Shown here piece after piece: positions 20,059-54,000 of a stretch of 64,000 bases of DNA. The stretch's first letter is position 1. Every line of letters starts with the position of its first letter. The position numbers and the translations under genes are program-made. Location: positions 1,277 to 65,276 of the forward strand of contig PMCF01000212.1 in assembly GCA_003154115.1 (NCBI GenBank). Reading direction: 5' to 3'. Source of the stretch: Anaerolineae bacterium. GTDB taxonomy: Bacteria > Chloroflexota > Anaerolineae > Fen-1058. The notes under the pieces are model-generated. The model was not told where the DNA came from and searched no databases. It saw nothing but the letters and a program-made list of their open reading frames with translations.

Positions 20059-20514
20059 ATGACGGACAATGCTACTCCTGCCACCGCTGCCGCCCGCAAC
20101 CATACCCCCATCGATCCGGCCAATGCCTATGTGTTGGTCGTAGAAGACAACATTCAGAACTTCGTGCTGATTGCCCGATTGATGGCTTTCCTCGGCGTTA
20201 AGCAATGTCAATGGAAAGCCTCGGGCTGGCAAGTGTTGGAATTTGCCGACAGCATGCCGCGCGTCGATTTGATTTTGATGGACATTCACTTGCCCTATGA
20301 AGACGGATTTGAAGCTCTGGCGCGCTTGCGCAACGAGCCCCGTTTTAAGGACACGATGATTGTAGCCGTCACCGCCGATGCCAACGAAGGCACGTTCAAG
20401 CGCGCCAAGCAATCGGGGTTTGATGGCTTCATCGGCAAGCCGATCGATCCCGATCGCTTCCCCGATCAAGTCAAGTCCATCCTGCGCGGCGAGGCCGTGT
20501 GGCATATGCGCTAG
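20059..20514 (+). CDS. single-domain response regulator with a short N-terminal extension
   Basis: Starts 3 nt after the previous stop codon. Motifs VLVVEDN, LILMDIHLPYEDG, IVAVTADA and FIGKPID. Confidence 0.8.
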   Translation: MTDNATPATAAARNHTPIDPANAYVLVVEDNIQNFVLIARLMAFLGVKQCQWKASGWQVLEFADSMPRVDLILMDIHLPYEDGFEALARLRNEPRFKDTMIVAVTADANEGTFKRAKQSGFDGFIGKPIDPDRFPDQVKSILRGEAVWHMR

Positions 20515-21383
20515 GCGTATCAGTCGCCGGATGGGGCGAAGGGAATTTCAGCGTGAGCGAGTTACCAGCCGTAAGTGTTACGCCTTTCAAGATTGCCATC
20601 GGCAGCCAGAAGGGCGGCGTGTCGAAGACGACGACGACGCTGTCGTTGGGCGCGTGCCTGGCCGAAAGCAACGGCACGCCAGCGCGCCACGTCTTGCTGA
20701 TCGATCTTGATCCGCAGGCCAATCTCACCCTGGCGCTGGGCGTGAATCCTGGCACGCTGCGCCGCATGATCGGCGACGCGTTGTTGGAGCAAACCTCGCT
20801 GCTCGCCATCAGCCGGGAAAGCGCGATTCCCAACCTTGATCTGGTTCCGGCGAATCAGGGCCTGTTGGTGTTGGACAAAGTCCTGTTTGGCCGTCCGGGG
20901 TTTGAATATCGGCTCAAGCAGCAGCTCGGCGGTCCGATCGCGCAGCACTATGACATCGCCCTATTCGACTGTCCGCCCGCCTTCGGCACGTTGACGATGA
21001 ATGCCCTGACGGCCGCTGACTTGTTGGTGATTCCCGTGCCCTGCGATTATTTTTCGGCCCGCTCATTGCCACAGTTCCTGGAGCTGGTGACCCTGGTCCA
21101 GCACAATACCAACCCGGCGCTGCGCTATCGCATTTTGATCACCATGTACGACAAGCGCAATCGCATCAGCCATATTATCCAGGATCAGCTGCGCCGCAAA
21201 TACGGCCACGCCATGCTGAACACCATCATCTCGATCGATACCAAACTGCGAGAAAGCCCGGTGGTCGGCCAGCCGATTACGCAGTATGCGCCAAACTCAC
21301 GGAGTGCGCAGGAATATCAGGCACTCGCCACGGAGTTGATGCAAGATGAGCAAACGCGAACGACATCTCAAGCAGCGGCTTGA
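20499..21383 (+). CDS. orphan ParA/MinD-family P-loop ATPase
   Basis: Deviant Walker A GSQKGGVSKTTTT, then LLIDLDPQANLT and Walker B YDIALFDCPP. The GTG start at 20499 overlaps the upstream gene by 16 nt, and GTG 20553 is also possible. The 3' end overlaps the next gene by 38 nt. No ParB-like gene is present. Confidence 0.8.
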   Translation: MAYALGVSVAGWGEGNFSVSELPAVSVTPFKIAIGSQKGGVSKTTTTLSLGACLAESNGTPARHVLLIDLDPQANLTLALGVNPGTLRRMIGDALLEQTSLLAISRESAIPNLDLVPANQGLLVLDKVLFGRPGFEYRLKQQLGGPIAQHYDIALFDCPPAFGTLTMNALTAADLLVIPVPCDYFSARSLPQFLELVTLVQHNTNPALRYRILITMYDKRNRISHIIQDQLRRKYGHAMLNTIISIDTKLRESPVVGQPITQYAPNSRSAQEYQALATELMQDEQTRTTSQAAA

Positions 21384-24300: not shown

Positions 24301-24900
24301 TACGATCCCGAGCGCCAAGAAATCTCGTTCCCCGTCAATGCTTCTGAATCCGTGCTGGACAAAGAGATCACCGTCATGCCAGCCAGTCAAGGCTTGACAG
24401 GCTATATTATCCGCACCGGGCAGCCTTTGCTCATCAAAGAAGATGTCCAAAGCACGGTCGACCGGCTGGGACTAGAAAATGTCGGCGCGAGATCACAATC
24501 TTATCTAGGTGTGCCGATTGCGGTTGGAGATCAGATCCTTGGCGCGGTCGCCCTTCAAAGCTATACCAAGGCCCGCGTGTATAACGAACACGATCAAGAT
24601 CTACTCATGGCGATTGCGGGTCAAACGGCGATTGCTCTGCAAAACGCGCGCCTGTTCGAGCAGATTCAGCGCACTGCCAAGCGCGAACAAACCCTGCGCG
24701 AACTGGCCGCACAAGTCCGCAGCTCAAGCGATCCCGACACGATCGTGCGCACGGCGGTGCGGGAATTGGGCATGGCTTTGGGTCGGCAGACTTTCATTCG
24801 TTTGGGGGATGCCGCGCAGCTGATCAAACCACCTGCGCCACCCAAGGCGGTCCCGGTGTCCGACAACGGGTCTGGCCCTGGATCGGAAGGAGGCCAGTAA
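21346..24900 (+). CDS. array member A: 3xPAS + 4xGAF protein, no recognisable output domain
   Basis: 1184 aa. Two tandem FKLG[IL]DR-type PAS domains, one signature GAF (LRAATGEAG, RFSNPDLPETHSELALPL), a DGWDDRFDR GAF and two further GAFs. It ends with the conserved C-terminal cap (ARLFEQIQRTAKREQTLRELAAQVRSSSDPDTIVRTAVRELG). Confidence 0.85.
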   Translation: MSKRERHLKQRLDELFSTAEESEAVAAGASAASAVQSPTPIEPATRPPQGDLVRLLTVIEQLPLPAYLKDHEHTWVAVNAAYGELIGHAPAKLIGHTDKEQADEAWQLDDRVLDTGQPEETQETTTLSDGSIRTRRIKRTALFNDQHEVQYVLGLVQEQDVAPHQRVEEDLSKFKLGIDRTNAAVTITDARGTIVYVNPAHEKIYGYSREEVIGQNPRLLKSGRVSPEQYQRFWARLLAGEPVTGEIINKAKDGRLVPVETNNTPILDANGKITGFLSIQYDISERKQAEADLRKFKLGLDRSSAAIFITTREGEITYVNPAFEKTYGYLPEEAIGRTPRILKSGVIPQEQYTHFWQTLLAGQTVAGEIINRTKDGRLIPIEGSNSPILDDDGNIIGFLSIHTDITERKQAEAEREQLLKSEAKRAVQLQTAAEISSAASTVLDVDELLPFVVNLIQQRFSLYYVGLFFVNATYQSAVLRAATGEAGRNMLEHGHQLPIDDRSMIGWCIGHETARIASDVGEDAVRFSNPDLPETHSELALPLISRGQVLGAMSVQSAEVAAFSPQDISVLQTMANQVATAIANAQLLEQSRAASRQAEARLRETQFLQRVGQASSAYLDPERVYDVAFDALENEMNFTHIALNIFNEKEDRAVVIRASGTAKEQQGLDRRMSALQNDIIMIVARHGKIEVIDGWDDRFDRDIYEAYGHATLVRAFVPLRLRGQSIGLLEAGYQHAERPLLTANEVRLLGSLADLIAVAVSNARLFEETQRRITELAVVNEISRTLTSTQDVNQLFVTIHQQVGRLFEASNFYIATYDGGDEWSLDYQFERDQLLPPAKHKLGRGFTSYILQTRQPLLIRSAQENTAFHEKHDLPKIGETAKSWMGVPLIVTGNITGVMGIQSYEREGLYDEHNVALFSTIGTQAATAIQNTRLLQEARLRANELAALNELSRTLASQLSVNQVLEEVWQGVSHLLDTTNFYIALYDPERQEISFPVNASESVLDKEITVMPASQGLTGYIIRTGQPLLIKEDVQSTVDRLGLENVGARSQSYLGVPIAVGDQILGAVALQSYTKARVYNEHDQDLLMAIAGQTAIALQNARLFEQIQRTAKREQTLRELAAQVRSSSDPDTIVRTAVRELGMALGRQTFIRLGDAAQLIKPPAPPKAVPVSDNGSGPGSEGGQ

Positions 24901-27900: not shown

Positions 27901-29884
27901 CGGCGGCGTCGGTTACATCTCCGTCAGCATCAACATCGACCGCGATGAGCAGGGCCGCATCCTGCGCTACTACGGCGCCAATCAGGACATCACTCAAAAC
28001 AAGCAGGCCGAAATCGAATTAGCCAAGTTCAAGCTGGGACTCGATCGCTCAACAGCGGCAATCTTTATAACCGATCCTGAAGGGATCATCACCTACATCA
28101 ATCCCGCCTTCGAGAAGATTTACGGGTTCACCCGTGTAGAGGCCCTCGGTCATACGCCGCGCATCTTGAAATCCGGATTGATTCCACAGGAACAATATCA
28201 GCAATTCTGGCAAGCGTTGCTGGCCGGCCAGACCGTAGCCGGGGAGATCGTCAACAAGGCCAAAGATGGGCGGTTGGTTCCCGTCGAAGGCAGTAACAGT
28301 TCGATTCTGGATGAAAAGGGCAACCTGATCGGTTTTCTGGCGCTGCACACCGACATTACCCGGCGCAAAGAAGTGGAACAAGAGCTAGCCCACTCGGCGC
28401 AGCTGCTAAACACGATCGCCAACACCAGTCGTGACTTGATCTACGTCAAGAACACGAAAGGCGAGTTCCAGATCGCCAGTCAAGCGGTAGCCCGGTTGGT
28501 CGGGGCCAAGACCGGCGATGAATTGATCGGTAAGTCCGATTTCGATTTCTTTCCCTACGAATTGGCCAACAAATATTATACCGACGAGCAAAATATTATC
28601 CAGGCCGGGGAGCCGCTGATTGACATCGAAGAAGCCAGCGTGTATCCCGATGGGACCCCGGTGTGGTTGCTCACGACGAAGATTCCCTATCGCGCAGCCG
28701 ATGGCACTTTGCTGGGCCTCGTGGGTATTGGCCGTGATATCACCGAACGCAAACGGGCCGAACAACAAATGGAAGAAACTCTGCGCGAGACGGAGCGCCT
28801 GTATGCCGCCGTGAGCGCCGAGGGGTGGAAAACCTTCCGTCAGTCTGGCCGTTTGCCGGAAGGCTATCTCTACGATCGCGCCCTGCTTCAGCCGGCGGAA
28901 CAACTCTGGGAACCGGAGATCGAACAAGCGGTGACACAAGACAAGACCGTTGCCACCCAAAGCAAAGAACGGGCCGTAGCCGTTACACCCTTAGCGGTGC
29001 GCGGCGAAATCATCGGCGCGCTGGGAATCTATGGCAGCCCGGACAAACCGCTGAGTCCCGACGATCTGTCATTGGTGGAAGCGGCTTCCGAGCAAGTGGC
29101 GCTGGCTTTGGAAAGCGCCCGCTTGTTCGGGCAAATGCAGGCCGCTCGCCAGCAAGCCGAATCGCATCTGCGCGAGGTGCAAATTTTGCAACACCTCACG
29201 CAGGAAATCTCCGGAACGCTCGACCTGGAGCGTGTTTTGGATGCGCTAGTCAGCACGCTGGTGAATCAAATGCACTTTGGCTTCGTCGCGTTCATCCTGA
29301 TTGACGAGCCAGCCAACGAAATGCGGACCGTGCGTGTCGCCGGCCTGGCACAAAGCATGAACGGTCTCGTCCAGCCGCTAGACAAGATGCAAAACGACAT
29401 CGATATGGATGTAGCGCGCAAAGGCAAAATTGAGGTCATTGATGGGTGGGATGACCGGTTCGACCGCGAGATATTTGAACGTGAAGGGCACGCTGCTCTG
29501 GTGCGCGCCTTTGTGCCGCTGCGCTTGCGCGAGCAAACGGTCGGTGTTCTGGAAGCCGGCTATCGGCGCGGGGAACGTTCTGCCATCACACCCGAAGAAA
29601 TCCGCTTGCTGGGCAGTCTGGCCGACCAGGTCGCCGTGGTCATTCAAAACACGCGCCTGTTCGAACAGACCCAGACCCGCGCCCGCCACGAGAAAACCCT
29701 GCGTGAAGTTACCGCTCGTGTACGTAGTTCCACCGATCCGGATACGGTGATGCGCACCTTAGCCCGCGAATTAGGCGCCGTGCTGGACCGATCAACCTTT
29801 GTCCGGTTGACAACTGAACAACCGGTGCTTACCTCGGCCAATGGCGGTAACGGCAATCAGCCGACGACCGAAGGAGGCAGGTAA
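24902..29884 (+). CDS. array member B: RsbRD_N-like N-domain + GAF/PAS array (1660 aa), no recognisable output domain
   Basis: ATG lies 1 nt after the stop of A and is preceded by GGAAGGAGG. Order: helical N-domain, GAF, a GAF with the GRCLCGRAA motif, cassette-1 GAF (YYHAQLFRY), five PAS modules including a duplicated one, a half-GAF, a DGWDDRFDR GAF, then the C-terminal cap. Confidence 0.85.
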   Translation: MYPQLAAQIRKQLPAFVDQYDAQLRHVPGYAGVPEPARRDLEQQVLQIMADCLEGGDDSALIQYIHERAEQVLARGFQPEWFQQAVTLAEEIITPLIKKVDEGNFVWRAMNHAQTTAWQIVARERTQVEEALRHSTEQQQHTARQLRAALEATNELIQVQDLDTLYRRTVELVREKFGIERCGLYLTDESHQYLLGTYGTDDHRHTTDERGAQRTTAEFEVILTTSPEQLWVVRETPHVFFENGVEHTLGAGWVVGTVLRGAAGPIGILFNDNALSGQPVDEAQQEALAVYCSAVGSIIERKRTEQELKSNFQMQQLLSTLLTISLENLPLLEQLERALDTITTSPFLPIKPQSGIFLVEQNNVLTLKVSHNLAPQLLSLCALVPFGRCLCGRAAATGQIQFADCVDERHENQFEGMRPHGHYNVPILSQGKLLGVMVLYVQEGHRPEKREEEYLRAVANTLAGIIERKQLEQRIRESLERRSRQVQTSTEVAQEIASATDLKELFQRVVTLIKERFDYYHAQLFRYEPAQGAVVLITGYGEIGQKMLASGHKLPMGRGVAGTAAATGESILVADVHQDKDWQPNPNLPETRGELAVPIKLRDQVLGILDVQSDRAGALTDDDRLLLEGLCGQIAVALESTRLLEELRRGEAQLSEALKIAKLAYWEYDVEKDLFLFNDQFYALFHTTAEQEGGYQLSSAQYAGKFVYPDDLPVVGVEIERALNSTDRHYSRDLVHRIQYADGGVGYISVSINIDRDEQGRILRYYGANQDITESRLAEQTIKEEQQRTQTILETVTVPMIISRLSDSKILYANQALAQFRHLAVEEMIGSRTADYFVNPDDRRKIVEALQQQGYVIDFETQLLGSDGAPSWVLLSARIVKYQNDTSVLTTYIDITDRKLAEEVLRRSEAQLSEALKIAKLAYWEYDVEKDLFLFNEQFYSIFHTTVEQEGGYQLSSAQYAGKFVYPDDLPVVGSEIERALNSTDQHYSRDLVHRIQYADGGVGYISVSINIDRDEQGRILRYYGANQDITQNKQAEIELAKFKLGLDRSTAAIFITDPEGIITYINPAFEKIYGFTRVEALGHTPRILKSGLIPQEQYQQFWQALLAGQTVAGEIVNKAKDGRLVPVEGSNSSILDEKGNLIGFLALHTDITRRKEVEQELAHSAQLLNTIANTSRDLIYVKNTKGEFQIASQAVARLVGAKTGDELIGKSDFDFFPYELANKYYTDEQNIIQAGEPLIDIEEASVYPDGTPVWLLTTKIPYRAADGTLLGLVGIGRDITERKRAEQQMEETLRETERLYAAVSAEGWKTFRQSGRLPEGYLYDRALLQPAEQLWEPEIEQAVTQDKTVATQSKERAVAVTPLAVRGEIIGALGIYGSPDKPLSPDDLSLVEAASEQVALALESARLFGQMQAARQQAESHLREVQILQHLTQEISGTLDLERVLDALVSTLVNQMHFGFVAFILIDEPANEMRTVRVAGLAQSMNGLVQPLDKMQNDIDMDVARKGKIEVIDGWDDRFDREIFEREGHAALVRAFVPLRLREQTVGVLEAGYRRGERSAITPEEIRLLGSLADQVAVVIQNTRLFEQTQTRARHEKTLREVTARVRSSTDPDTVMRTLARELGAVLDRSTFVRLTTEQPVLTSANGGNGNQPTTEGGR
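26850..27219 (+). repeat. copy 1 of a 370-bp intragenic direct repeat (PAS module)
   Basis: Aligns without gaps to 27624..27993 at an offset of 774 bp. I counted about 36 mismatches in 370 bp, with two perfectly identical tracts of roughly 60-70 bp. Confidence 0.9.
27624..27993 (+). repeat. copy 2 of the 370-bp intragenic direct repeat (PAS module)
   Basis: See copy 1. It encodes EAQLSEALKIAKLAYWEYDVEKDLFLFN...ILRYYGANQDIT, as copy 1 does. Confidence 0.9.
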
Positions 29885-32994: not shown

Positions 32995-35727
32995 ATGGGT
33001 TTTCTTCCGAAAGCGGCGCTCATAAGACTTCGCTATCCGCAGAAGTTTGTTTTGATCGGCTTGCTGTTTGCCTTACCGCTGGCAATCGTGTTGTTCCTAC
33101 TAGCGAGTGAAACGAGCGCACGCATCGATAACTACGGCTATCAAGAAAAGTACGGCGTCGAATACTTACGAGCGACACGGCGGTTGATGCAAGATATTCA
33201 GCAGCATCAGCAGCTAACCGACAGCGATCTGCGCACCGGCGCGTCCGGCTTAGCTACTCAGATTTCTCAACAACGCACGACCATCACCCAGGACTTTGCC
33301 GCGCTTGAGCAAGTCAACAACCAGTACGGTCCCGCGTTCAAGTCGAACGAGGCCATACACACCCTGGAACAAGATTGGCAGGCCCTAATGAGCAGCGCGC
33401 AGCCGCTGAGCCTCACTGTGAGCGACGAGCAACATGCCGGCGTCCTGGCCGACCTCCGATCGCTCATTTCGCTCGTGGGGAATACCTCGTACCTCATCCT
33501 TGATCCGGACCTGGATACTTATTATATGATGGACACCGTGCTCCTGAAGCTGCCGGAAACTCAGGACTTGCTGGCGCAGACATTAGCGATCGGCCAGAAT
33601 GCTGGCAAGCAGCCCTTGACTTTAGATGAAAGATCTCAAGTGCTGATTCATATCGGCTTGTTGCGATCGAATCTTGACGCACTGAAGACGAACGTGCAAG
33701 TAGCCTTCGATAACAATCCGGCCCAGACCCTGAGGCCGCTCGTTGCGGAGCCGCTCCAGGCCCATATCGACGCCCTGGAGCAATTCCTGACGGTCGCAGT
33801 GCAAAGCGCGACCGGCGCATCGGGGCAGGTGATCGACCCGTCAGAGTTTGTCGCTGCGGGACAGCGTGCGCTTAATCAGAGTTACCAATTCTATGATGCG
33901 GCTTCACCCGCGCTGGAAATAGCGCTCCAGGCCCGCATCGATCGTCTGTTGAGCCGCCAGATCGCGACTGTGCTGATTTCGCTGATCGGCCTGTTGCTCG
34001 GGTTTGGGATTGGCTTATCCGTGATGCGCAACATTAGCCGCCCGTTGGGTCTGTTGACCGCTGCCACCCAACGTCTGGCGAGTGGCGATTTAGCAACGCG
34101 CGTGGAGGTAGCAGGCGGAGTCGAAGTTGCGGCGGTTGGTGCTGCGTTCAATGAGATGGCGCAGCGACTGCAAGTGACACTCAAATCGCTGGAAGATCGC
34201 ACAGCGCAATTACGCACCAGTGCTGATGTAGGCCGCGCGGCTGCCTCCATCCTTGATCCAGGCCAGCTCTTGCGTGACGTGGTCGACTTGATCACCGATC
34301 GCTTCGGGTTTTACTATGCGGCCGTGTTCACACCGGATGATACCGGGAAATGGCTGGTGCTGCGTGAAGCGACCGGCGAAGCGGGCCGCATCCTCAAAGA
34401 ACGCGGCCACAAACTGGAAATAAATGAGCATTCCATGGTCGGGTACGCGGCCGTCCAGCGCAAACCACGCATCGCGCTTGACGTGGGTCAAGAGGCCGTG
34501 CGATTTGCCAATCCGCTGCTGCCCGACACTCGATCGGAAATTGCGCTGCCGCTGATCACGGGTGGTCGCGTGCTCGGCGCGCTCGACGTGCAATCGACGC
34601 AGGCCAGCGCGTTCGATCAGACCAGCGCCATCGCGCTGCAGTCCATGGCCGATCAAATCGCCATCGCGCTCAGCAATACCCTGCAATTCCAGCAGACCCA
34701 GGCGGGCTTGCAGCGCACGCAGCAGTTGTATGAAGCAAGCACGGCTATCTCCAATGCGGAAGATGCGCCCAGTATTCTACGGGAGTTGACGACGAAGGGC
34801 GTACCCGCTGCCGATGCCGCTCAGATTCTGACCTATGGGCCGCGTGATGAAACAGGTCACCCTGTCTACTTTGAAGTGGCGGCCTCCTGGGCACCTGCCA
34901 ACGACGAACTATTTCTGCCGGTAGGCACGCGCGTCAGACCAGATCAAGTACCGCCGGTGCCTGCTTTGGCGAGCGAACCCTATCTGATCCGCGATTCCGC
35001 CGATCCAGCGACCTCGCCTGAACAACAACAAATCATGCAGGCCATGCGCATGCGCGCCATGCTGGGTTACGCCTTGGTGGCTGGTTCCCAACCGGTGGGC
35101 GTGTTGCTGATCGTTTATCGTGAACCGCGCCCGTTTACGACGGCTGAGACCCAGCCTTTGCAGGCCCTGATCGGACAAGTGGCCGTGACGTTGCGCAACC
35201 AGCAATTGGTGCGTGACGAAGCCGCCGCGGTGCAGCAGCTGGATGAAATCAATCGCCGCTTAACCGGTCAAGCGTGGGATGAATATGCCCGCACCATTGG
35301 CGCGGTGACCTATAAAGAAGACGTAGGGCCAACCGCTAACGCGAGTTCTGAAACAGCGCCGGCGGTACTCGCTGCGCCGATTACGATTCACGGCGAAGAA
35401 GTGGGCGTTTTGCGCCTGGAAGATACCACTCCCGATCGGAAGTGGACACCTGGCGAGTTAACCTTAGCTCGCGTCGTAGCAGGTGAAGTGGCGATTGCCC
35501 TTGAAAATGCCCGCTTGCTCGAAGAAACCGAACGGCGCGCCCAGCACGAACGCCTGGTGGCCGAGATTAGCAGTCGCATGTTCGCGTCAAACGATATGGA
35601 AACGATCATTCAGATTGCGGGTCAAGAGCTGGGGCGCGTGCTGCGAGTTGATCGAACTGAGGTCAGGATTAGCAACACTTTCAGCGAACCTGCTGCAGAT
35701 GCAATCACATCACCCCAACCCAATTAA
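32995..35727 (+). CDS. array member D: TM + helical periplasmic sensor + TM + HAMP + signature GAF + GAF + half-GAF, no recognisable output domain
   Basis: ORF 32941..35727 trimmed to ATG 32995 after AAGGAGGGAAGGA. The sensor domain contains LILDPDLDTYYMMD. HAMP segment (RPLGLLTAATQRLASGDLATRV). Signature GAF (LREATGEAG, RFANPLLPDTRSEIALPL). C-terminal cap present. Confidence 0.85.
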   Translation: MGFLPKAALIRLRYPQKFVLIGLLFALPLAIVLFLLASETSARIDNYGYQEKYGVEYLRATRRLMQDIQQHQQLTDSDLRTGASGLATQISQQRTTITQDFAALEQVNNQYGPAFKSNEAIHTLEQDWQALMSSAQPLSLTVSDEQHAGVLADLRSLISLVGNTSYLILDPDLDTYYMMDTVLLKLPETQDLLAQTLAIGQNAGKQPLTLDERSQVLIHIGLLRSNLDALKTNVQVAFDNNPAQTLRPLVAEPLQAHIDALEQFLTVAVQSATGASGQVIDPSEFVAAGQRALNQSYQFYDAASPALEIALQARIDRLLSRQIATVLISLIGLLLGFGIGLSVMRNISRPLGLLTAATQRLASGDLATRVEVAGGVEVAAVGAAFNEMAQRLQVTLKSLEDRTAQLRTSADVGRAAASILDPGQLLRDVVDLITDRFGFYYAAVFTPDDTGKWLVLREATGEAGRILKERGHKLEINEHSMVGYAAVQRKPRIALDVGQEAVRFANPLLPDTRSEIALPLITGGRVLGALDVQSTQASAFDQTSAIALQSMADQIAIALSNTLQFQQTQAGLQRTQQLYEASTAISNAEDAPSILRELTTKGVPAADAAQILTYGPRDETGHPVYFEVAASWAPANDELFLPVGTRVRPDQVPPVPALASEPYLIRDSADPATSPEQQQIMQAMRMRAMLGYALVAGSQPVGVLLIVYREPRPFTTAETQPLQALIGQVAVTLRNQQLVRDEAAAVQQLDEINRRLTGQAWDEYARTIGAVTYKEDVGPTANASSETAPAVLAAPITIHGEEVGVLRLEDTTPDRKWTPGELTLARVVAGEVAIALENARLLEETERRAQHERLVAEISSRMFASNDMETIIQIAGQELGRVLRVDRTEVRISNTFSEPAADAITSPQPN

Positions 35728-36343: not shown

Positions 36344-39001
36344 ATGAAGACCAGAACGAAGAAACCGCGGACTGCGCGAAGCTTGACCACTACGCTGGCT
36401 ATTGCGTTTTTGGTCTTGAGTGCGACTAGCCTCATGATTTCTGGCGTACTGCAGACGCTTTCAAACCTTGCCACCCAGCAAGAGGCCGTCGCCGGCAAAC
36501 TGGAACTCATTGCACAAAACGCCAGCCAGCCGGTCAACAGTTTCATCCAGGCCAAGTTCAGCATCCTAGAAACCGCCGCTCGGCTGACCAATCTTATGAA
36601 AATAACGCCCGACGAGCAGCAGCAGGTACTGGACAATCTGCTGGGCCGCGATGCGGCCTTTCGCCAAGTGGTAGTGCTGAACGTCCAAGATCAGGAAACC
36701 GCCCAAGCCGCGCGTTTATCGCAACAGGCCGCCGGCTCGCTGGCCGGTCAACTGCAGGGAGAAATGCTCTCCCAAGTGCACCAGGGCCAGCATACGATGA
36801 GTGCCGTGCGCGTGGACCTCAATACCAGTGAGCCGTTGGTGCTGTTGGCTTTGCCCGTGACAAACGCTTTGGGCGATTTCCAGGGCACCCTGGCAGCCGA
36901 GGTCAACTTGAAGTTCATGTGGGACCTGGTCGATCAACTCCAGGTGGGCGAGACCGGTGTGGCTTATGTGGTGGATAAGCAGGGCAATCTGCTGGCGTTC
37001 AGCGATACCGCTCGCGTGCTGCGCGGCGACAATGTGGCAAATTTACCCAAGGTCCGCGAGTTCATCACCGGCGTCAAGGAGGTCCCGTTCCTGGACTTGA
37101 CGATCGGGATTCAGGGTATCTCGACTGTCGGAGGGTATGCGCCCTTAGGCACGCCCGATTGGGCCGTCATCACCGAAATGCCTTGGGATGAAGCCTATCG
37201 TAACGCCATTCAGAATGTCATCGCGTCGGTCGTGATCTTAGTGGTCTTGGCCGCCCTGGCTGGCTTACTGGGGCTCTATCTAGCTCGTCGCCTGGCTGTG
37301 CCGCTGATCAGTCTGACTGACACCGCGTCCCGGATTAGCGCTGGCGAGATGGAGCTGCAGGCCACAACTACCGGGACCCGCGAAGTCGGTGCTTTGGCAC
37401 AAGCTTTCAATAGTATGACCACGCGCCTGCGCGATTTGATTGATTCGCTTGAAACACGCGTGGAAATGCGCACCGCACAAGTCCAGGCCAGTGCCGATGT
37501 TGGCCGTGTGGTGACTTCGATCCTCGATCCCGATCAGCTGCTGAAGCGCGTCGTGGAGCTCATCACCGAGCGCTTTGGTCTTTATTACGTGGCTGCCTTC
37601 ACGTTGGACCCAACCGGTCAATGGGCCGTGCTGCGGGAAGCCTCGGGACCGCGCGACGCGGCCTGGCTGCTCAAGCAAGCGGGGCACCGCCTGGAAATAA
37701 CTAGCAACTCGATGGTCGCCGCCAGCATCCGCGAGCGCCAGGCTCGCATCGCTTTGGATGTGGGTAACGAAGCCGTACACTTCTCCAATCCACTGCTCCC
37801 GGAAACCCGATCGGAAGTGGCCCTCCCGCTCATCGTCGGCGATCAAGTTTTGGGGGCGCTGGATGTGCAATCGGTGCAGGCGGTCGCCTTCGACGAAACC
37901 AGTACCGCCGTGCTGCAGAACATGGCCGACCAGATCGCCGTCGCCCTCAACAATGCCGCGCAATATCAACTGGAACAACACCACGCCCAGCAGACGACGC
38001 AGCTGTTGGAGGCCAGCGTTGAGTTGAGTTCACAGACCGAGGCGACCCGCTTATACAATCGCACCGTCGAGGTCGCGGCCAATCTGCTTCATGCCGATAG
38101 TGCCGCCCTATGGCAGCCGGTAGAAGAGAGCGAGCTCGAGCTCTTGTATGCCGTCGGTCCTCTCAAGGCTCTGATCGGCCAACGCGCCCCGATCGGTGAA
38201 GGCATTGCCGGACGTGTGTATGCCACCAGCCTGGCCTTGCGCCTAAATGAGACCCGCAGCTGGCGTGATGCCGCCGTCGATTTTGGCGAGGTTCCCGTAC
38301 GAGCCGTCGTCGCGGTCCCCATGGTCTGGCAGGGCGAACCGGTCGGTGTGTTAGTCATTGCCCATACCTATCCCGATAGTATCTTTACCGCGGATGATGC
38401 CAATGTCGCACAGTTGTATGCAGCCCAAACAGCTTCCACGTTGGCTAATATGCGTCTGCTGGAACAGCTCCAGAATACCCTGGATAATCTGAGCGCAGCC
38501 AACCGGCGCTTGACGGGGGAAGCCTGGCAGGCTCGTCTGCGCGGCAGCGAGATTTCTTACGAATATCGCCGCACCACAGCCGCTAGCCCGACACGCTCCG
38601 CGCAACCTGCGTTGTCGCTGGCCTGGCCGATCGAGCTGCGCGGCCAACCGATTGGCCAGATCATCCTGGACTTACGCGATCGGCCGCAACGTGAACTCAC
38701 CAAAGACGAGCGCAGCATCGTGCAGGAAGTCGCACAGCGGATGTCGCTGGCACTGGAAAGCGCACGGTTATTTGAGCAGACTCAAGCGGCGCTAAGCGAA
38801 GCGCACCGCCTGGCCCACCGCGAGCAGATGATCAATCGCATCACCAGCCAGCTGCGCGCGGCCACTACGGTGGACGAAGTGCTGCACATCGCTACTGACG
38901 AAATGCGCCGCGCCGTACAGGCCAGCTGGGCCGCCGCCGAATTGGTACCGCCTGCTCACACCAGAGATGGACGAGGTGATGACCATGACAGCCAAAAATA
39001 A
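36344..39001 (+). CDS. array member E: TM + Cache-type extracytoplasmic sensor + TM + HAMP + signature GAF + GAF + half-GAF, no recognisable output domain
   Basis: 885 aa. Cache-like GVAYVVDKQGNLLAFSD. HAMP segment (RRLAVPLISLTDTASRISAGEM). Signature GAF (LREASGPRDA variant, HFSNPLLPETRSEVALPL). RRLTGEAW segment. C-terminal cap present. Confidence 0.85.
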   Translation: MKTRTKKPRTARSLTTTLAIAFLVLSATSLMISGVLQTLSNLATQQEAVAGKLELIAQNASQPVNSFIQAKFSILETAARLTNLMKITPDEQQQVLDNLLGRDAAFRQVVVLNVQDQETAQAARLSQQAAGSLAGQLQGEMLSQVHQGQHTMSAVRVDLNTSEPLVLLALPVTNALGDFQGTLAAEVNLKFMWDLVDQLQVGETGVAYVVDKQGNLLAFSDTARVLRGDNVANLPKVREFITGVKEVPFLDLTIGIQGISTVGGYAPLGTPDWAVITEMPWDEAYRNAIQNVIASVVILVVLAALAGLLGLYLARRLAVPLISLTDTASRISAGEMELQATTTGTREVGALAQAFNSMTTRLRDLIDSLETRVEMRTAQVQASADVGRVVTSILDPDQLLKRVVELITERFGLYYVAAFTLDPTGQWAVLREASGPRDAAWLLKQAGHRLEITSNSMVAASIRERQARIALDVGNEAVHFSNPLLPETRSEVALPLIVGDQVLGALDVQSVQAVAFDETSTAVLQNMADQIAVALNNAAQYQLEQHHAQQTTQLLEASVELSSQTEATRLYNRTVEVAANLLHADSAALWQPVEESELELLYAVGPLKALIGQRAPIGEGIAGRVYATSLALRLNETRSWRDAAVDFGEVPVRAVVAVPMVWQGEPVGVLVIAHTYPDSIFTADDANVAQLYAAQTASTLANMRLLEQLQNTLDNLSAANRRLTGEAWQARLRGSEISYEYRRTTAASPTRSAQPALSLAWPIELRGQPIGQIILDLRDRPQRELTKDERSIVQEVAQRMSLALESARLFEQTQAALSEAHRLAHREQMINRITSQLRAATTVDEVLHIATDEMRRAVQASWAAAELVPPAHTRDGRGDDHDSQK

Positions 39002-41177
39002 AGCGGTCCAGCCCAGTTGGCGACAGCGCGTAGCGGGACCGCCGACACTAAGCGCTGAAGACCGGGCACAAACGGCCAGGTATCTCAACATCCTGCTGCC
39101 GGTCGCCATGGTGCTGCTCGGTGTACGTGTGGCATTTGCCTTCGTGGAGCAGGGCTTCAGTTTGAGTACCGGCGATTTTCTGCTCCTGGTGCTGATAGCG
39201 CTCCTGGGCGGTTTATGGGCGCTGACACGGCGCGGGTATGTGTTGGCCGCGGCCAGTGCGTTGTTGTTTATTACATTTTTCGGCATGGTCTATCTTGCCT
39301 CCCAAGCCAACGGCCTCTTCGACGGCGCCTTTGCCGCGTTAGCCATCGTGATTCTGATGGCCGGCCTGCTCATTGACTGGAAAGCCGTGATCGTCATGGG
39401 TGGACTGAGCATCGCTGCCGCCTGGTGGCTGGCCAGCCGTAATGCCGGAACCCCGATTATGCTGGAGGCAAATGCGGCGTTTGAATATGCACGCGATGTC
39501 ACGATCGTATTCTTGTTGCTGACGGTGGTGACCTATCTGCTCATCAGCAGCTTGCGGCGCACGTTGGATCAGTCGCACCTGAGTGAACAAGCTCTGCGCG
39601 AGCAAAACGTCGAGCTAAATCAGACGCGCGGTTTGCTGGAAACCCGCGTCGAGATGCGCACCGCCCAACTGCAAGCCAGCGCCGAGGTAGGCCAGGCGGC
39701 GGCCTTGGTACTTGACCCCGATCAGCTGCTGCATGAAGTCGTCAACTTGATCGCTAATCGGTTTGATTTCTATTACGCCGCCATCTTCACGCTCGATCGC
39801 ACCGGAGCCTATTTGCTGCTGCGCGAGGCTACCGGCGAGGCCGGCCGCACCTTGAAAGAACGCGGCCACCGCTTGCGCGTCAGCCTGGACTCCATGGTGG
39901 GTTACGCGGCCTTGCGGCACGAACCCCGCGTCGCCATGAACGTCAGCGAAGATACCGTGCGTTTTGCTAACCCGCTGCTGCCCGACGCGCAATCGGAAGT
40001 CGCGCTGCCGTTGATCGTAGGACAGGAAGTCATCGGCGTCCTGGACGTACAGTCGACGCACCTCAACGCTTTCGATGAGAGCATGCTCACGGCCCTGCAG
40101 GCCATGGCTTCACAAGTCGCTGTCGCATTGCAAAATGCACAATCGTTTCAGAGTCTGCAAAAGACGCTGGAGTACACCACTCGGCAATATGAACTAAGCC
40201 GCAACATCTTCCTGGCGCAGACCCCCAACGAAGCGTATCTCACCCTGGGGCAAGCTTTCGCCATGTTTGCCGAGGTCGATCGCATTCAGCTGCTGCGCAT
40301 CGTAGAGCGAGATGCCAACGACCAGCCCGCGGTTTACGAACTGGCCATCGAGTGGGACATTCTGGGCGGAGCGCAAATGGATACCGGCACGAGTTACACC
40401 GCCGCAGAGACGCCGCTCGCCGCATTAGTGGCTGAAGACGAACCCGTCGTCATTCGTGACGCTAGCGATGCGCGGTTGCCCGCGACGACCCGCGAGCAAT
40501 TGGCACAAGTAAACGCCCAGGCGATTATCTTAGCGCCGCTCCTGATCGGCGCGAAGTACAGTGGCTTTGTGGCGGCCATTTCGGAACAGCCGCGCGAGTT
40601 CACTGATAGCGAAGTACGTCTGTTGAAATCAACCGCGGAACAATTGGGCGTGGTGTTGGCTAATCTGCAATTGACCGCTGAAATGCGTACTACTGTCGAG
40701 CGAGTGGCGTTGCTCAATCGCCGGTTGAGCGGCGAGGCCTGGGACAGGTATCGGGCAGGGCGCGCCCAGCTGCGTGTCGAAAGCGGCCATGTTGAATTTC
40801 CCGCAGGGACGCCAGAGCATCAACTGCAAGTGCCCATCGTCGTGCGCGGTGAAACGATCGGAGCCTTCAACGTTGCCGACAATAATCTCGAACGCAGCTG
40901 GAATGAAGATGAGCTGAGCATGCTGCAGACCATCGCCGGAGAAGTGGCGCTGGCCATTGACAATGCGCGTCTCATCGAACAGACCCAGCGCACCGCCCAG
41001 CGTGAGAAGGACATCGCCGATGCGGCCGATCAGATCCACCATTCGATGAATCTGGAGACCATTCTCAACACGGCGCTAGGCGAGATCGTGCGTATCACCG
41101 GGGTTGAAGATGTGGCTATTCAATTCGGCTCACTGACCAGCCTGCCCGGCAATGGCCAGCACGCTGCGCAGCTATGA
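38985..41177 (+). CDS. array member F: polytopic membrane N-domain (~6 TM) + signature GAF + GAF + half-GAF, no recognisable output domain
   Basis: ORF 38967..41177; ATG 38985 follows GAGGTG and overlaps the end of E by 17 nt. No HAMP. Signature GAF (LREATGEAG, RFANPLLPDAQSEVALPL). RRLSGEAW segment. C-terminal cap present. Confidence 0.8.
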   Translation: MTAKNKAVQPSWRQRVAGPPTLSAEDRAQTARYLNILLPVAMVLLGVRVAFAFVEQGFSLSTGDFLLLVLIALLGGLWALTRRGYVLAAASALLFITFFGMVYLASQANGLFDGAFAALAIVILMAGLLIDWKAVIVMGGLSIAAAWWLASRNAGTPIMLEANAAFEYARDVTIVFLLLTVVTYLLISSLRRTLDQSHLSEQALREQNVELNQTRGLLETRVEMRTAQLQASAEVGQAAALVLDPDQLLHEVVNLIANRFDFYYAAIFTLDRTGAYLLLREATGEAGRTLKERGHRLRVSLDSMVGYAALRHEPRVAMNVSEDTVRFANPLLPDAQSEVALPLIVGQEVIGVLDVQSTHLNAFDESMLTALQAMASQVAVALQNAQSFQSLQKTLEYTTRQYELSRNIFLAQTPNEAYLTLGQAFAMFAEVDRIQLLRIVERDANDQPAVYELAIEWDILGGAQMDTGTSYTAAETPLAALVAEDEPVVIRDASDARLPATTREQLAQVNAQAIILAPLLIGAKYSGFVAAISEQPREFTDSEVRLLKSTAEQLGVVLANLQLTAEMRTTVERVALLNRRLSGEAWDRYRAGRAQLRVESGHVEFPAGTPEHQLQVPIVVRGETIGAFNVADNNLERSWNEDELSMLQTIAGEVALAIDNARLIEQTQRTAQREKDIADAADQIHHSMNLETILNTALGEIVRITGVEDVAIQFGSLTSLPGNGQHAAQL

Positions 41178-47600: not shown

Positions 47601-48024
47601 TAGTGCAGCCTTTTCGCCCCAAGCCATTAAGCTACCGATCAAAGTGCGCGGTGCCACTATCGGCGAATTTAGTGTTGCGCCGGATCAGGGGCAGGCCGAC
47701 TGGAACTCGGAAGAGGTGGCTTTTGCACAGGCCTTGATCGATCAGGTCGGACAAGTGCTTGAGAATGCTCGCCTGTTGGAAGACACTGAACGATCGGCTC
47801 AGCGCGAGAAAGCTGTGGCTGGTGCGGCCGACAAGATTCACCGCGCGACTGATATTGAAACGGTGTTGCAGTCTGCCATCACCGAGTTGAACCGGATTAC
47901 GGGCCGAAGTGGCATCAGCATTCAGCTGGGATTCGGCCACGCTGACGTGCAGCGCAACCTGTCAGCTGGCAGCGGTCAGCGCACGGGCCAACCACGCCAC
48001 GAGGGACCGGAAGGAGATCGGTAA
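44620..48024 (+). CDS. array member H: polytopic N-domain + Cache-like sensor + TM + HAMP + signature GAF + GAF + half-GAF, no recognisable output domain
   Basis: The start is ambiguous: ATG 44620 overlaps G by 17 nt, and GTG 44653 follows GGAGGA. HAMP segment (RPILSLNEAAGKVAQGDLSVRA). Signature GAF (LRAATGEAG, RFVNPLLPKTRSEIALPL). RRLMGQVW segment. C-terminal cap present. Confidence 0.8.
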   Translation: MVMATSCNGGFVTTNPILRSQGLIAQQVRSARRVAILLLVAVVPSIGLLGFLAYQSRAWQLVVETANMTAYGVALLVSFRLIRRNRVLLGMQILLIGMGLGLLALNLLIGGLGILLGIAVSLLITAIATLTLPERVVTPAIIISFGLGLFIVLLDTLLPAYRLLVPALNVYVPGVVVVLAVVCIYLIVRQFGSFSMRGKLSLTLLLVAIVPVILQAVAFTLLAQSRLTSISQQDLLSSAKQTAGRINRFIDDGLLDVRSSTLLLDVIDLLSAPADKRDTTKVAAIFDALSGRSRYIQSYAVFDTTGIDVFDTSRSNIGTNQLNRPYIQNPLQTSKPYVSDVLFDQVTGEGLLHFSAPVRAANGDLIGIAEVAYSVTALQDLVAQSSDLKNTGQFGLLFDENHFRLADGSNTTDQLPFKLTMPLTPEQLTTLRAAQRLPAGDITKLTANLPDLDKGLQQATQQSFFVAEAGETVNQGESSEAPDQMAVFKLGSRPWLVVFGETQSALLSPVTDLARSSLFLVLAISAVTIFIAARVSRALARPILSLNEAAGKVAQGDLSVRAIVNTADETGLLAATFNSMTEQLGSMVTTLEDRVQARTEQLRASAEVGHAATSILNPDQLLKQVVDLITARFGFYYTAVFVVDEENQQAVLRAATGEAGHVLLERGHRLPLNGESMVGTVIATSLPKIALDMGEDAVRFVNPLLPKTRSEIALPLRVGDRNLGALDVQSEQADAFDESNAEALQAMADQIAVALFNAETFNRSEQQARSLAKLNQLSRELAQAATRESVAFAVAQAVVELMGPNRLALVETTPNPQLLSARTLWPDANRPLGEPQPIPASSSLSGECLKLGERIYIPDSNTVLDKYEDVALTHALGVRSNVAIPLRIGERVIGTFNVASDRLNAYTPEQLSQLEQVAAQVAVTLDSLNLTKQTQQALTELDAANRRLMGQVWSTYTQSDRLVAAEWRNGEWITTHRQGLSAKAAQSQALVSAASAAFSPQAIKLPIKVRGATIGEFSVAPDQGQADWNSEEVAFAQALIDQVGQVLENARLLEDTERSAQREKAVAGAADKIHRATDIETVLQSAITELNRITGRSGISIQLGFGHADVQRNLSAGSGQRTGQPRHEGPEGDR

Positions 48025-51000: not shown

Positions 51001-54000
51001 CTTTGATTACTTCCCGCAGGAATTGGCGGCGCAATACTATGCGGACGAACAGGAACTCATGCGCATCGGTCAGCCGCTGTTCAACCGAGAGGAGTTCGTC
51101 GTCGACCAATCCACGGGCAAGCGACAATGGGCACTTAGCACTAAGGTTCCGTTACGAGACAGTCACAGCCAGGTCACCGGATTCCTGGGCTTCACACAAG
51201 ACATCACAGAACGCAAACTGGCCGAACAGGCCCTGCAGCGCAATGAAGCGGAGCTGTCAGAAGCGCTGCGCATCGCCCACCTTGCCGACTGGTCCTACGA
51301 CGTCCCGACCGACACGTTCACCTTCAACGATCAGTTCTATGCGTTGATGCGCACCACCGCCGAACGTGAAGGCGGGTATACCATGTCGTCGGCGCAGTAC
51401 GCCCAACGGTTTGTCCATCCCGAAGATGCACCGATCGTTGGCGCTGAAATCGTCAAGGCGCTGGAAACCACTAATCCCGACTATCGCGCCCAGGTCGATC
51501 ATCGCGTCTACTTCGGCGACGGCGAACTGGGTTACGTCACCATCCGCTTCTCCATCGAGAAGGATGAACAAGGCCGTACCGTGCGGACGCACGGCGCGAA
51601 CCAGGACATCACCGACCGCAAGACCGCCGAAGCAGAATTGCAGCGCTCTGAGCAGCTGATGCGCACTTTGATCGATGCCCTACCGGATCACATCTATGCT
51701 AAAGATCCAGAGGGACGACTGACCTTGGTCAACTTGGCCGAGGCGCGATTGCACGGCGTCGATACACCCGAAATGCTTGTCGGAAAAAGCGATTTCGATT
51801 TCTACCCGCGCGAACTGGCCGAACAGTATCGCGCTTCCGAATTGCCCATTCTGCGTGACGGCGTGCCGTTGGTGAATCATGAAGAACCCAACATGGATGC
51901 AACAGGTCAAGCGCGCTGGAATTCCACGACCAAGGTGCCACTGCGCGACAATGGGGGACAAATCATCGGGTTGGTGGGGATTACGCGCGACGTCACCGAA
52001 CGTAAACTGGCCGAAGCCGAACGCGAACAAATATTGACCGATCAGCAAAGGCGCGCTGTGCAACTTCAGACGGCGGCCGAGGTTGGCCGGGTCGCCACCT
52101 CGATCCTGAATCCCGAACAATTGCTGGATGAGATCGTCACACTCGTCGCCGCGCGCTTTGGCTTCTACCATGTGGCGGCTTTCACCGTGGATGAATCCGG
52201 CCGTTGGGCCCAGCTCCGTGCCGCCACCGGCGAAGTGGGACAGCAGCTGCTAGACCGCGGCCAGGCGCTGGGAATTCGTGGAAAATCGCTCGTGGGCAAC
52301 GCGATTCGACAACGCCAACCGCGGATTGCGCTCGATGTCGGCCCTGAAGCGGTGCACTTTGATGATCCGCTGTTGCCCGTCACTCGTTCGGAGATCGCCT
52401 TGCCGCTGATCGCCGGCGATCAGGTACTGGGTGCCCTCGACCTGCACTCCACCTTGCCGGCGGCCTTCGATGAGAACTCCGCCATCTTGTTGCAGAGCAT
52501 GGCCGATCAAATCGCGGTCGCACTCAACACGGCCGAGCAATATCAGCGCGAGCAAGCTCATGTCGAGCAAACCAATCGACTCATGCAGATTGTGATTGAC
52601 TTGTCCGAGCGAACCGATCGGGCCGGGCTGCAAAATCGGCTGGTTCGGTCCGCTCTCTCGCTGCTCGACACGGATCGTGCTCAATTCTGGCTGAAGGGCG
52701 CCAGCGGCCTCGAACTGAAAGCCGCCCAGAGTGTCCGGCCCGGGGCGGACCAGAGCTTGGCGATCAGCCAGGAACTCGCCGATCGGGTCTACCGCACCGG
52801 CCTCCCCCTGCGCCTGGACAGTCCCCCGGTTCAAACCGGTTATGCGAGCCGCATCACCGATGTGCCGTTCAACGCCGCGCTCATGGCGCCCATCAGTTGG
52901 CAGGGCCATACCACCGGCGTGTTGAGCGTCATGCGCTCGCAGCCGGGCCGCCCATTCACCCAGGACGACGAGAACTCCGTTCAACTGTTAGCTGCGCAGG
53001 CGGCCGCTGCGCTTGAGAACATTACGCTGGCCGAGCAACAGCAGCACCGCGCCGTGCAATTGCAGACCGCCGCCGAAGTCTCGCAGGTCGCCTCGTCAAT
53101 CCTGAATCTTGACGCCCTGTTGCCGCAAGCCGCCGAACTGGTTCGCTCCCGTTTTGACCTCTACTACGTCGGCATCTTCCTCATCGACGAAGCAGAGCGG
53201 TGGGCAGTACTCCGGGCCGGCACGGGCGACGCCGGACAACAGATGCTGGCCAACGGGCACAAATTGAAGATCGGCGAAGCTTCGATGATCAGCCAGTGCA
53301 TTGTCAAACAACAGGCGCGGATCGCGCTCGACGTCGGCGCAGAAGCCATTCGCTTCGATAACCCGCGGCTGCCGTTAACCCGCTCAGAGTTGGCGCTGCC
53401 GCTCGTCAGTCGCCGGCGTGTCATTGGCGCGGTGACCATCCAATCCGATCAGCCGGCCGCCTTCACGTCGGATGATATTACCGGGTTGCAAACCATGGCC
53501 GATCAAATCGGCAACGCCGTGGAGAATGCCCGGCTGTACGAGCAATCCAATGCGGCCCTCCAAGAAGTGGATGCGCTCAATCGCCGCCTAACCGGCGAGG
53601 CCTGGGAATCGTATTTGCACCGCCAGAGCGGGCAACAAGTCATCAGCGTTACCGATAACAGCCAGACAGCGCCGGACCTGCTGCCCCAGCTCGACGGCCT
53701 GCTAGCTGCAGGCGAGATCGTTGTCGAACCCGCCGAAGATGATCAATCGGAAGCGACGGTCACCGCGCCCATCCTGCTGCGCGGCCAACCGATCGGCGCG
53801 CTGCGCATGCGGACACCGCTCGACACCTGGGACAAGGACACCGAAGCCGTCTTGACCGGCATTGCGGGCCACATCGCACAGGCCGTAGAAAACGCCCGAT
53901 TGATCGAGCAGACCCAACGCACGGCCTCACGCGAACGCGCCATCAACGAGATCAATGCCCGGGTGCGCCAGACTATCGACCTGGATGCCATCCTGCGCAC

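What the first reader, a model, noticed from the sequence alone, without database searches (positions are those of the whole stretch)
24643..24900. All ten output-less proteins end at the same point, inside the start of an uncompleted GAF
The last 70-95 aa of A-J align to the pattern ARL[FIL]E[QE][TS][QE]R-A-RE--[IL]--[IV]---[IV]R---D-[DE][TAS][IV][LM]-[TI]A--E[LI]---[LT], then 5-8 residues resembling a first beta strand. A short low-complexity tail and the stop codon follow. Approximate coordinates for A-E are 24643-24900, 29648-29884, 32747-32978, 35507-35727 and 38761-39001. For F-J they are 40964-41177, 44435-44636, 47767-48024, 53894-54151 and 56731-56963. In kinase K the homologous stretch (59098-59270, ENARLYQETQHRINELVVLTRIVRRLASTLDLDEILSSVIEESF...GGIFLY) is the linker helix plus the beginning of a complete GAF that leads into HisKA. 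The ten proteins therefore carry a conserved orphan GAF N-terminal fragment. It might be a vestige of a kinase ancestor. It might instead be a functional docking or strand-swap element that pairs in trans with a partner, for example K or another member.
Basis: partly seen in the sequence, partly recalled or inferred. Interest (0 to 1): 0.65.

Follow-up and report, generated by a model that had tools for sequence, protein, structure and literature searches.

The report
Truncated GAF start caps output-less sensors
Ten neighbouring giant sensor proteins of an uncultured Anaerolineae (Chloroflexota) bacterium, and well over a hundred relatives, all end in the same conserved 50-residue piece, the first helix and strand of a phytochrome-type GAF domain. 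This piece is kept by selection as a swappable end module, but what it binds is still unknown.

Summary
All ten proteins A-J end in an alignable module: the junction ENARLxEQTQ, a conserved R-E, two amphipathic helices, a V-x-I-x-L-G strand pattern, and a 10-29 aa tail.

A 48-column profile of the module finds only 14 of 80,882 ORFs in this genome. With relatives and homologues it gives 172 hits of at least 30 bits, all 0-39 aa from the stop.

The module is a GAF N-terminal fragment. It sits exactly where kinase K, and the fused J+K kinases of sister genomes, begin a complete GAF. By sequence, however, it matches the N-termini of cyanobacteriochrome/phytochrome-type GAFs (PDB 6OAP, E 2.6e-13), not K's (4 bits).

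It is not a decaying vestige. dN/dS is 0.03-0.38, against 0.77 for the tail.

It behaves as a cassette. C and D combine the body of one sister-genome gene with the cap of the next.

AlphaFold models it as a helical hairpin continuing the last GAF helix, with the strand unpaired.

My best reading is a terminal dimer-closing or docking hairpin. This is inferred, not shown. Docking in trans onto the single associated kinase remains open.

The parts
24637..24900 (+). Cap of A: junction LQNARLFEQIQ, cap core to 24813, tail and stop
   Evidence: cap HMM 69.4 bits, match ends 29 aa from the stop
29642..29884 (+). Cap of B (core to 29818) plus tail; follows a full GAF
   Evidence: 64.1 bits
32739..32978 (+). 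Cap of C (core to 32915) plus tail. The cap is 78% identical to that of a different sister-genome gene than the body is
35500..35727 (+). Cap of D (core to 35676) plus tail; chimeric body/cap relative to sister genome G004
38753..39001 (+). Cap of E (core to 38950, with a 7-aa insertion in the linker helix) plus tail
40956..41177 (+). Cap of F (core to 41132) plus tail LTSLPGNGQHAAQL. Modelled by AlphaFold as a helix continuing alpha5, a turn and a second helix
44427..44636 (+). Cap of G (core to 44603) plus tail
47758..48024 (+). Cap of H (core to 47934) plus tail
53885..54151 (+). Cap of I (core to 54061) plus tail
56724..56963 (+). Cap of J (core to 56900) plus tail. It sits where the fused J+K-type kinase of sister genomes begins its last GAF
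59097..59621 (+). Kinase K: junction ENARLYQETQ and the complete GAF (aa 429-596) that occupies the cap's position and leads into HisKA
40683..40982 (+). Reduced 'W-mini-GAF' of F (NRRLSGEAW helix, VESG, beta hairpin, alpha5) just before the cap. Complete copies of this module occur in this genome only in cap proteins and in their two associated kinases

Best explanation
The cap is a selected, modular C-terminal domain made from the first ~45 residues of a cyanobacteriochrome/phytochrome-type GAF: the linker helix, helix alpha1 and strand beta1. The rest of that GAF was never present in these genes.

The last helix of the preceding GAF or mini-GAF runs on without a break through the junction ENARLxEQTQ into cap helix 1. 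The chain then turns at the D-x-D/E site, and helix 2 packs back to form a hairpin. The conserved R-E and E residues probably hold the two helices together. The V-x-I-x-L-G strand and a flexible tail follow.

I infer that this hairpin closes the helical spine of the sensor dimer, as a DHp hairpin does in a kinase but without histidine or ATPase. I also infer that its buried-type strand pairs across the dimer or with a partner.

Shown: its identity, its terminal position, its selection and its cassette behaviour. Inferred: its role in dimer closure or docking.
For: - Position and specificity: 172 of 172 hits of 30 bits or more are C-terminal. There are 14 in this genome and none at internal GAF starts.
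- Spread: 28 of 41 related genomes carry 1-20 copies, in tandem arrays of up to 16.
- Homology to GAF N-termini: PDB profile hits 6OAP (2.6e-13), 8W26, 6BHN, 2LB5 and 3W2Z, all covering the first ~45 residues of the chain's GAF. hhalign gives 96.5% and 69%. In the 1.84-billion-protein library the same profile matches the starts of complete cyanobacterial-type GAFs.
- Structure: AlphaFold of F 560-736 has mean pLDDT 79. It gives one continuous helix 88-133 (alpha5, linker and cap helix 1) and a helix 137-152, at pLDDT 82-95. The best Foldseek matches are phytochrome GAF-PHY junctions.
- Selection: G000 against G004 gives omega 0.20 for the body, 0.04 for the junction, 0.03-0.38 for the cap where it has not been swapped, and 0.77 for the tail.
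- Modularity: C and D have 71-78% body identity to one G004 gene but 78-80% cap identity to the next gene. F-type bodies carry I-type or H-type caps in metagenomic homologues.
- The cap follows either a mini-GAF (C-I) or a full GAF (A, B, J).
Against: - No dimer or complex could be modelled, so dimer closure is an inference from the hairpin shape and from what is known of parallel GAF/PHY dimers.
- The strand positions are 99-100% hydrophobic yet unpaired in the model. Part of the module's purpose is therefore unexplained and may lie in a partner.
- A purely structural terminator would not obviously need nine distinct, genus-conserved cap classes in one array.
- The alignment used for the model is shallow (39 sequences). 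The second model (P0176, single sequence) was of low confidence and uninformative.
Confidence: 0.45

Rival explanations
1. Trans docking. The exposed alpha1-beta1 of each output-less sensor plugs into, or lines up with, a partner. The partner would be the single associated kinase (K here) or other array members. This would join many sensors to one transmitter in a heteromeric complex.
For: - The strand is conserved as a buried-type strand but has no partner in the monomer model.
- Every array examined is linked to a kinase that lacks the cap, and a threonine-synthase-like gene usually lies next to it. Where tested, in this genome, that kinase carries the system-specific W-mini-GAF, as do the cap proteins.
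- In C-I the cap lies at the same register after the W-mini-GAF as the start of K's GAF.
- Genes are tightly coupled or overlapping.
- A ParA-like ATPase gene heads the array here and in the sister genomes, and one lies inside the array of a more distant genome.
Against: - There is no direct evidence of any interaction.
- In B and J the cap would line up with K's DHp rather than its GAF.
Confidence: 0.25
2. Cis completion. The cap strand and helix fold back to complete the preceding reduced W-mini-GAF, so that mini-GAF plus cap form one circularly permuted GAF-like domain.
For: - The local GAF HMM matches mini-GAFs only at positions ~104-170, and matches J's cap at positions 2-47.
- In other proteins an internal cap is followed by a hairpin plus alpha5 (P0176, P0145). 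The two pieces can therefore belong to one unit.
Against: - The AlphaFold model of mini-GAF plus cap does not pair the strand with the hairpin.
- A, B and J have the cap after a complete GAF, and A has no W-mini-GAF.
- Caps are exchanged between bodies without co-change.
Confidence: 0.08
3. Neutral vestige. The cap is what remains of kinases that lost everything after the first strand of their last GAF, and it has no function of its own.
For: - It is positionally equivalent to the GAF start of K and of the fused kinases.
- Recombination at the conserved junction can interconvert kinase-ended and cap-ended genes.
Against: - Omega is 0.03-0.38 against 0.77 for the tail.
- Conservation reaches class level, with near-invariant cap-specific residues.
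- K's GAF start scores only 4 bits on the cap-specific profile.
- J's cap is closer to other caps (45-52% identity) than to the orthologous kinase segment.
Confidence: 0.03
4. Address tag. The cap, or its tail with the enriched G-x-G motif, is a recognition element for the ParA-like ATPase (cluster positioning), a protease or a modifying enzyme.
For: - G-[NDRKSH]-G occurs in 76 of 168 tails, against 15 expected from shuffles; GNG occurs in 41 against 3.
- A ParA-like gene is present in several arrays.
- A PF04672 methyltransferase lies next to J.
Against: - The tail evolves almost neutrally (omega 0.77).
- No methyltransferase gene lies between the last cap gene and the kinase in the sister genomes.
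- Counts include orthologues, so they are not independent.
Confidence: 0.07

Closest known systems
N-terminal helix-strand (alpha1-beta1) of cyanobacteriochrome/phytochrome-lineage GAF domains (PDB 6OAP, 8W26/2LB5 SyB-Cph1, 6BHN NpR6012g4, 3W2Z AnPixJg2)
   Same: It shares the sequence signature R-E-[RK]-x-I-x-x-I-x-x-[KR]-I-R-x-S-x-D-L-[DE]-x-I-L-x-T-x-V-x-E-[VL]...V-x-I. Profile E-values run from 2.6e-13 to 3e-5, covering profile columns 2-44.
   Different: Those domains continue for another ~120 residues (sheet, pocket, bilin cysteine). The cap stops after beta1 and is followed only by a low-complexity tail.
Helical spine junction between tandem GAF/PHY domains of phytochromes (Foldseek: 8W26, 4BWI, 5NWN, 3LFV)
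   Same: The model of hairpin, alpha5, long linker helix and next alpha1 superposes on GAF-to-PHY and GAF-to-GAF junctions over ~92-99 columns.
   Different: E-values are weak (0.015 or higher). In those proteins the next domain is complete.
DHp (HisKA) helical hairpin of histidine kinases
   Same: It is a helical hairpin placed directly after the sensor spine. In K and the fused kinases the transmitter follows at the corresponding end of the protein.
   Different: There is no H-box: His at the corresponding column occurs in only 34% of caps. There is no Pfam HisKA match and no ATPase domain. Its homology is to GAF, not to DHp.
Multi-sensor assemblies feeding one kinase: stressosome RsbR paralogues, chemoreceptor arrays with ParA-like positioning ATPases
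   Same: At the system level only: many paralogous output-less sensors are encoded next to one kinase, with a ParA-like ATPase gene in the cluster.
   Different: There are no STAS, MCP signalling or CheW/CheA domains. Assembly is purely hypothetical here.

Membership tests
GAF domain (Pfam PF01590 / PF13185) | Sequence match to the family profile | tested here: inconclusive
   Only the first 25-31 profile positions match. The caps of I and J score 14-15 bits against PF01590 (E 0.03-0.07), below the 22.4-bit cut-off. hhalign to local GAF alignments gives 69% and 96.5% over the first ~56-59 columns.
GAF domain (Pfam PF01590 / PF13185) | Complete fold of ~130-170 residues: a 5-6-stranded antiparallel sheet flanked by helices, with a ligand pocket | tested here: not met
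   The proteins end 9-29 aa after the first strand. The model shows two helices and no sheet.
Cyanobacteriochrome/phytochrome-lineage GAF | N-terminal signature (RE..I..I..IR.SLDL..IL.T.V.E...L...RV.I) | tested here: met
   PDB profile search: 6OAP 52.9 bits, 8W26 51.1, 6BHN 41.2, 2LB5 39.8. Internal matches lie in complete cyanobacterial-type GAFs.
Cyanobacteriochrome/phytochrome-lineage GAF | Bilin pocket and chromophore-binding cysteine | tested here: not met
   The region that would carry them is absent, because the protein stops after beta1.
HisKA / DHp | Conserved phospho-acceptor histidine (H-box) in helix 1 | tested here: not met
   No HisKA hit even at E up to 10. The only recurrent His (column 28) is present in 34% of 168 caps.
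HisKA / DHp | Followed by an HATPase_c catalytic domain | tested here: not met
   Only a 10-29 aa tail follows. Pfam finds HATPase_c in K only.
HisKA / DHp | Hairpins of two chains form a four-helix bundle | not testable with these tools
   Only single-chain prediction was available.

The most novel reading that the evidence does not exclude
The cap is the connector of a previously undescribed heteromeric sensing machine. Up to 16 co-encoded, output-less PAS/GAF/HAMP/Cache sensors would each use their orphan alpha1-beta1 element to dock onto the one W-mini-GAF histidine kinase of the locus, or onto each other. One transmitter would then integrate many inputs, with a ParA-like ATPase organising the assembly. 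This would be a GAF-based counterpart of stressosomes or chemoreceptor arrays.
Probability: 0.2. Interest if true: 0.85.

Novelty: new variant of a known kind. Interest (0 to 1): 0.58.

Why it matters
Output-less multi-sensor proteins are common in genomes, and how they pass signals on is poorly understood. Here one conserved, selected and swappable end module defines a large Anaerolineae family of such proteins. These proteins lie in long arrays beside a single kinase. This gives a concrete handle for experiments: delete or swap roughly 50 residues and ask how output-less sensors dimerise or connect to a transmitter. It is also a clear natural case of a domain fragment kept as a functional unit, and of domain shuffling by recombination at a conserved linker.

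Tried and rejected
1. Pfam and NCBIfam scans of the caps and whole proteins found no family for the module. Only sub-threshold GAF hits to positions 1-31 and chance hits appeared.

2. Circular-permutation idea (mini-GAF plus cap as one domain). The AlphaFold model does not support it, and neither do A, B and J or the cap swaps.

3. Second AlphaFold job. I spent it on P0176, a protein with an internal cap, without an alignment. The result had mean pLDDT 58 and modelled the cap as all helix, so it was uninformative.

4. Reading the 1.84-billion-protein search as a count of caps is not valid. The ranking is dominated by multi-GAF proteins with many weak or moderate internal matches to GAF starts. 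The figure of 10,632 hits therefore counts GAF starts of this type as well as caps.

5. K as the source of the cap is rejected on the cap-specific profile (4.2 bits).

6. Two literature searches found nothing on this module.

8. Looking up the cap consensus among earlier findings of the scan found no look-alikes in other windows.

Full report
**Setting.** The window carries, on the + strand:
- a ParA-like ATPase gene (20499-21383);
- ten large genes A-J (21346-56963);
- a PF04672 methyltransferase gene (56991-57794);
- the hybrid kinase K (57834-61187);
- a gene for a threonine-synthase-like protein fused to a receiver (61219-62874);
- a receiver-kinase gene.

Pfam finds only PAS, GAF, HAMP and dCache domains in A-J. 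HisKA, HATPase_c and receivers are found only in K. Close relatives are metagenome-assembled genomes labelled Thermoflexales, Anaerolineae or Anaerolineales.

**Checking the observation.** The last 69-88 residues of all ten proteins align. The pattern is:
- the junction [IL]-E-N-A-R-L-x-E-Q-T-Q;
- R-x-A-x-R-E;
- an amphipathic helix;
- a D-x-[DE] turn;
- I-L-x-T-A-x-x-E-L;
- a hydrophobic-alternating V-x-I-x-L-G segment;
- a tail of 10-29 residues rich in G, A, P and S.

This is not chance. A 48-column HMM of the cap-specific part, without the junction, was run on all 80,882 six-frame ORFs of the 7.7-Mb genome. It finds the ten proteins (61-70 bits) and four tandem proteins on contig C162 (38-49 bits). 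In all of them the match ends 5-31 residues from the stop. The best internal GAF start scores 18 bits.

In 41 related genomes, 28 have 1-20 copies. In arrays fetched from nine of them, every hit of 30 bits or more is terminal, in runs of up to 16 consecutive genes. Together with homologues of F there are 172 hits, all 0-39 residues from the end.

**What it is.** Three lines of evidence show that it is the start of a GAF domain.

1. Profile comparison. The cap profile aligns to the first ~56-59 columns of local GAF alignments. This gives 69% probability and E 4.4e-5 against a mixed seed. Against the K-type last GAF it gives 96.5% and E 8e-10.

2. Solved structures. The cap-specific profile hits the N-terminal ~45 residues of cyanobacteriochrome and phytochrome GAF domains. 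Examples are 6OAP (E 2.6e-13), 8W26 and 2LB5 (SyB-Cph1), 6BHN, 6XHG, and 3W2Z/5ZOH (AnPixJ). In the 1.84-billion-protein library it matches the beginnings of complete cyanobacterial-type GAFs, such as ERERAVAAIIDKIRRSLDIDTIFQTTAQEVRQL...DRVAIYRF.

3. Position. J is the orthologue (52-74% identity over ~910 residues) of the N-terminal two thirds of a single 1577-1612-aa kinase in three same-genus genomes. K 399-1117 is 90% identical to the C-terminal part of the G004 kinase. J's cap lies exactly where that kinase begins its last complete GAF.

One correction is needed. Much of the similarity to K comes from the shared junction. On the cap-specific profile K scores 4.2 bits and the fused kinases 2-8 bits. 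J's cap is closer to other caps (45-52% identity) than to the orthologous kinase segment. The cap is an old module of the phytochrome/cyanobacteriochrome GAF type, not a recent stump of a K-like GAF. No complete GAF of that type was detected in this genome.

**Structure.** I modelled F 560-736 (mini-GAF plus cap) with a 39-sequence alignment. Mean pLDDT was 79. The model has:
- a long helix, 2-42;
- a beta hairpin, 60-78;
- one continuous 46-residue helix, 88-133, comprising alpha5, the junction and cap helix 1;
- a turn and a second helix, 137-152.

The blocks covering 61-150 have pLDDT 82-95. The 'strand' (about 153-160) is coil, with pLDDT falling from 74 to 51. The tail is below 50.

The best Foldseek matches are GAF-PHY and GAF-GAF junctions of phytochromes and PDE5. 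So the helices are not disordered. The strand's partner is missing in a monomer, yet its positions 55 and 57 are 100% and 99% hydrophobic across 168 caps.

**Selection and modularity.** I compared orthologues in this genome and sister genome G004 (Nei-Gojobori, pooled). Omega is 0.20 for the 170-190 codons before the cap, 0.04 for the junction, 0.30 for the cap and 0.77 for the tail.

The cap figure is inflated by C and D. For E, F, G, H and I it is 0.38, 0.12, 0.35, 0.04 and 0.03.

C and D are chimeras relative to G004:
- D's body is 78% identical to one G004 gene, whose cap is 20% identical to D's. D's cap is 80% identical to the cap of the next G004 gene, whose body is 41% identical.
- C shows the same pattern: 71% and 35% against 78% and 31%.

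Metagenomic F-orthologues likewise carry I-type or H-type caps. Within the genus the order of cap classes along the array is conserved: a-h-(s)-d-e-j-l-k-c.

The cap is thus a cassette exchanged at the conserved junction. It is not co-adapted to the domain before it, which can be a reduced mini-GAF (C-I) or a full GAF (A, B, J).

**System context.**
- A reduced 'W-mini-GAF' (NRRLTGEAW helix, VESG, hairpin, alpha5) occurs in complete form in this genome only in cap proteins, in K, and in the kinase next to the second array on C162.
- In the same-genus genomes the gene order is receivers, a ParA-like gene, the cap genes, one large kinase without a cap, the threonine-synthase-like gene and a receiver-kinase.
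- In two more distant genomes (G017, G039) the cap array is likewise followed by a large kinase and the threonine-synthase-like gene.
- On C162 the threonine-synthase-like gene and the kinase come before the cap genes.

**Mechanism.** What is shown is identity, strict terminal position, purifying selection and cassette behaviour.

What I infer is this. The hairpin ends the helical spine of a parallel sensor dimer, as a DHp does in a kinase. The strand pairs across the dimer or with a partner. I give this reading 0.45.

Docking in trans to the kinase or to other members gets 0.25. It would explain the unpaired but conserved strand and the constant linkage to one kinase. There is no interaction evidence, and the caps within one array are only 21-56% identical.

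Cis completion of the mini-GAF gets 0.08. It is disfavoured by the model, by A, B and J, and by the swaps.

A neutral vestige gets 0.03 and is essentially refuted.

An address-tag role gets 0.07. It rests only on the enriched G-x-G motif in the tail: 76 of 168 against 15 expected.

**Known or new.** No Pfam or NCBIfam model covers the module. Homologues are annotated only as 'GAF domain-containing protein'. Two literature searches found nothing. It is a new variant of a known kind: a GAF-derived fragment used as a terminal module.

**Limits.**
- No multimer prediction was available.
- No coordinates were available for contact analysis.
- One structure job was wasted on a single sequence.

Noticed in passing
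window 54144-61187 (J, methyltransferase, K); loci L013 and L016-L018/L026-L027 (G004, G002, G001): In three same-genus genomes J and the C-terminal 720 residues of K form one 1577-1612-aa kinase gene. Here they are separate, with J's cap, a PF04672 methyltransferase gene and a different 400-residue K N-terminus between them. Both breakpoints lie at or next to the conserved junction ENxRLxQxxQ. The direction of the event (split or fusion) is unresolved.
   Followed up: partly
window 29841-35727 (C, D) versus G004:C43 (L013-L015): C and D each combine the body of one G004 gene with the cap of the adjacent G004 gene. This fits unequal recombination or deletion between neighbouring paralogues.
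   Followed up: yes
tails of the caps, e.g. window 41133-41174, 44604-44633, 29819-29881: The low-complexity tails are enriched in a G-[NDRKSH]-G motif (GNGQ, GRGKTHD, RGNDHD). It occurs in 76 of 168 tails against about 15 in shuffles, although the tail evolves almost neutrally. The counts include orthologues.
   Followed up: partly
window 40683-40982 and equivalents in B-K; genome contig C162:33000-34916: A reduced GAF ('W-mini-GAF': NRRLTGEAW helix, invariant S-G, hairpin, alpha5) occurs in complete form only in cap proteins and their two kinases in this genome. No family model covers it either.
   Followed up: partly
genome contig C162:21599-36567 (minus strand): A second, smaller locus of the same kind. 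In order it has a threonine-synthase-like gene, a 639-aa W-mini-GAF kinase, four cap proteins and two lipoprotein genes that look like solute-binding proteins.
   Followed up: partly
window 29841-29886 and 47909-48026: The longest ORFs of C and I probably start too early. By alignment with B's N-terminus, the true starts would be about 29886 (GTG) and 48026 (ATG), one to two bases after the stop of the preceding gene. The real overlaps would then be small.
   Followed up: no
P0176, P0145, P0115, P0131 (library proteins): Outside this lineage some proteins have internal cap modules. These are followed by a linker and a hairpin plus alpha5, or by a W-mini-GAF, and the proteins end in a second, terminal cap. 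They are either repeat units or fused neighbouring genes.
   Followed up: partly
window 35728-36343: There is a 616-nt gap between D and E. At the corresponding place sister genomes have a 513-524-aa gene (MTTSDLPGKSDTP...). The gap here may hold its remnant.
   Followed up: no
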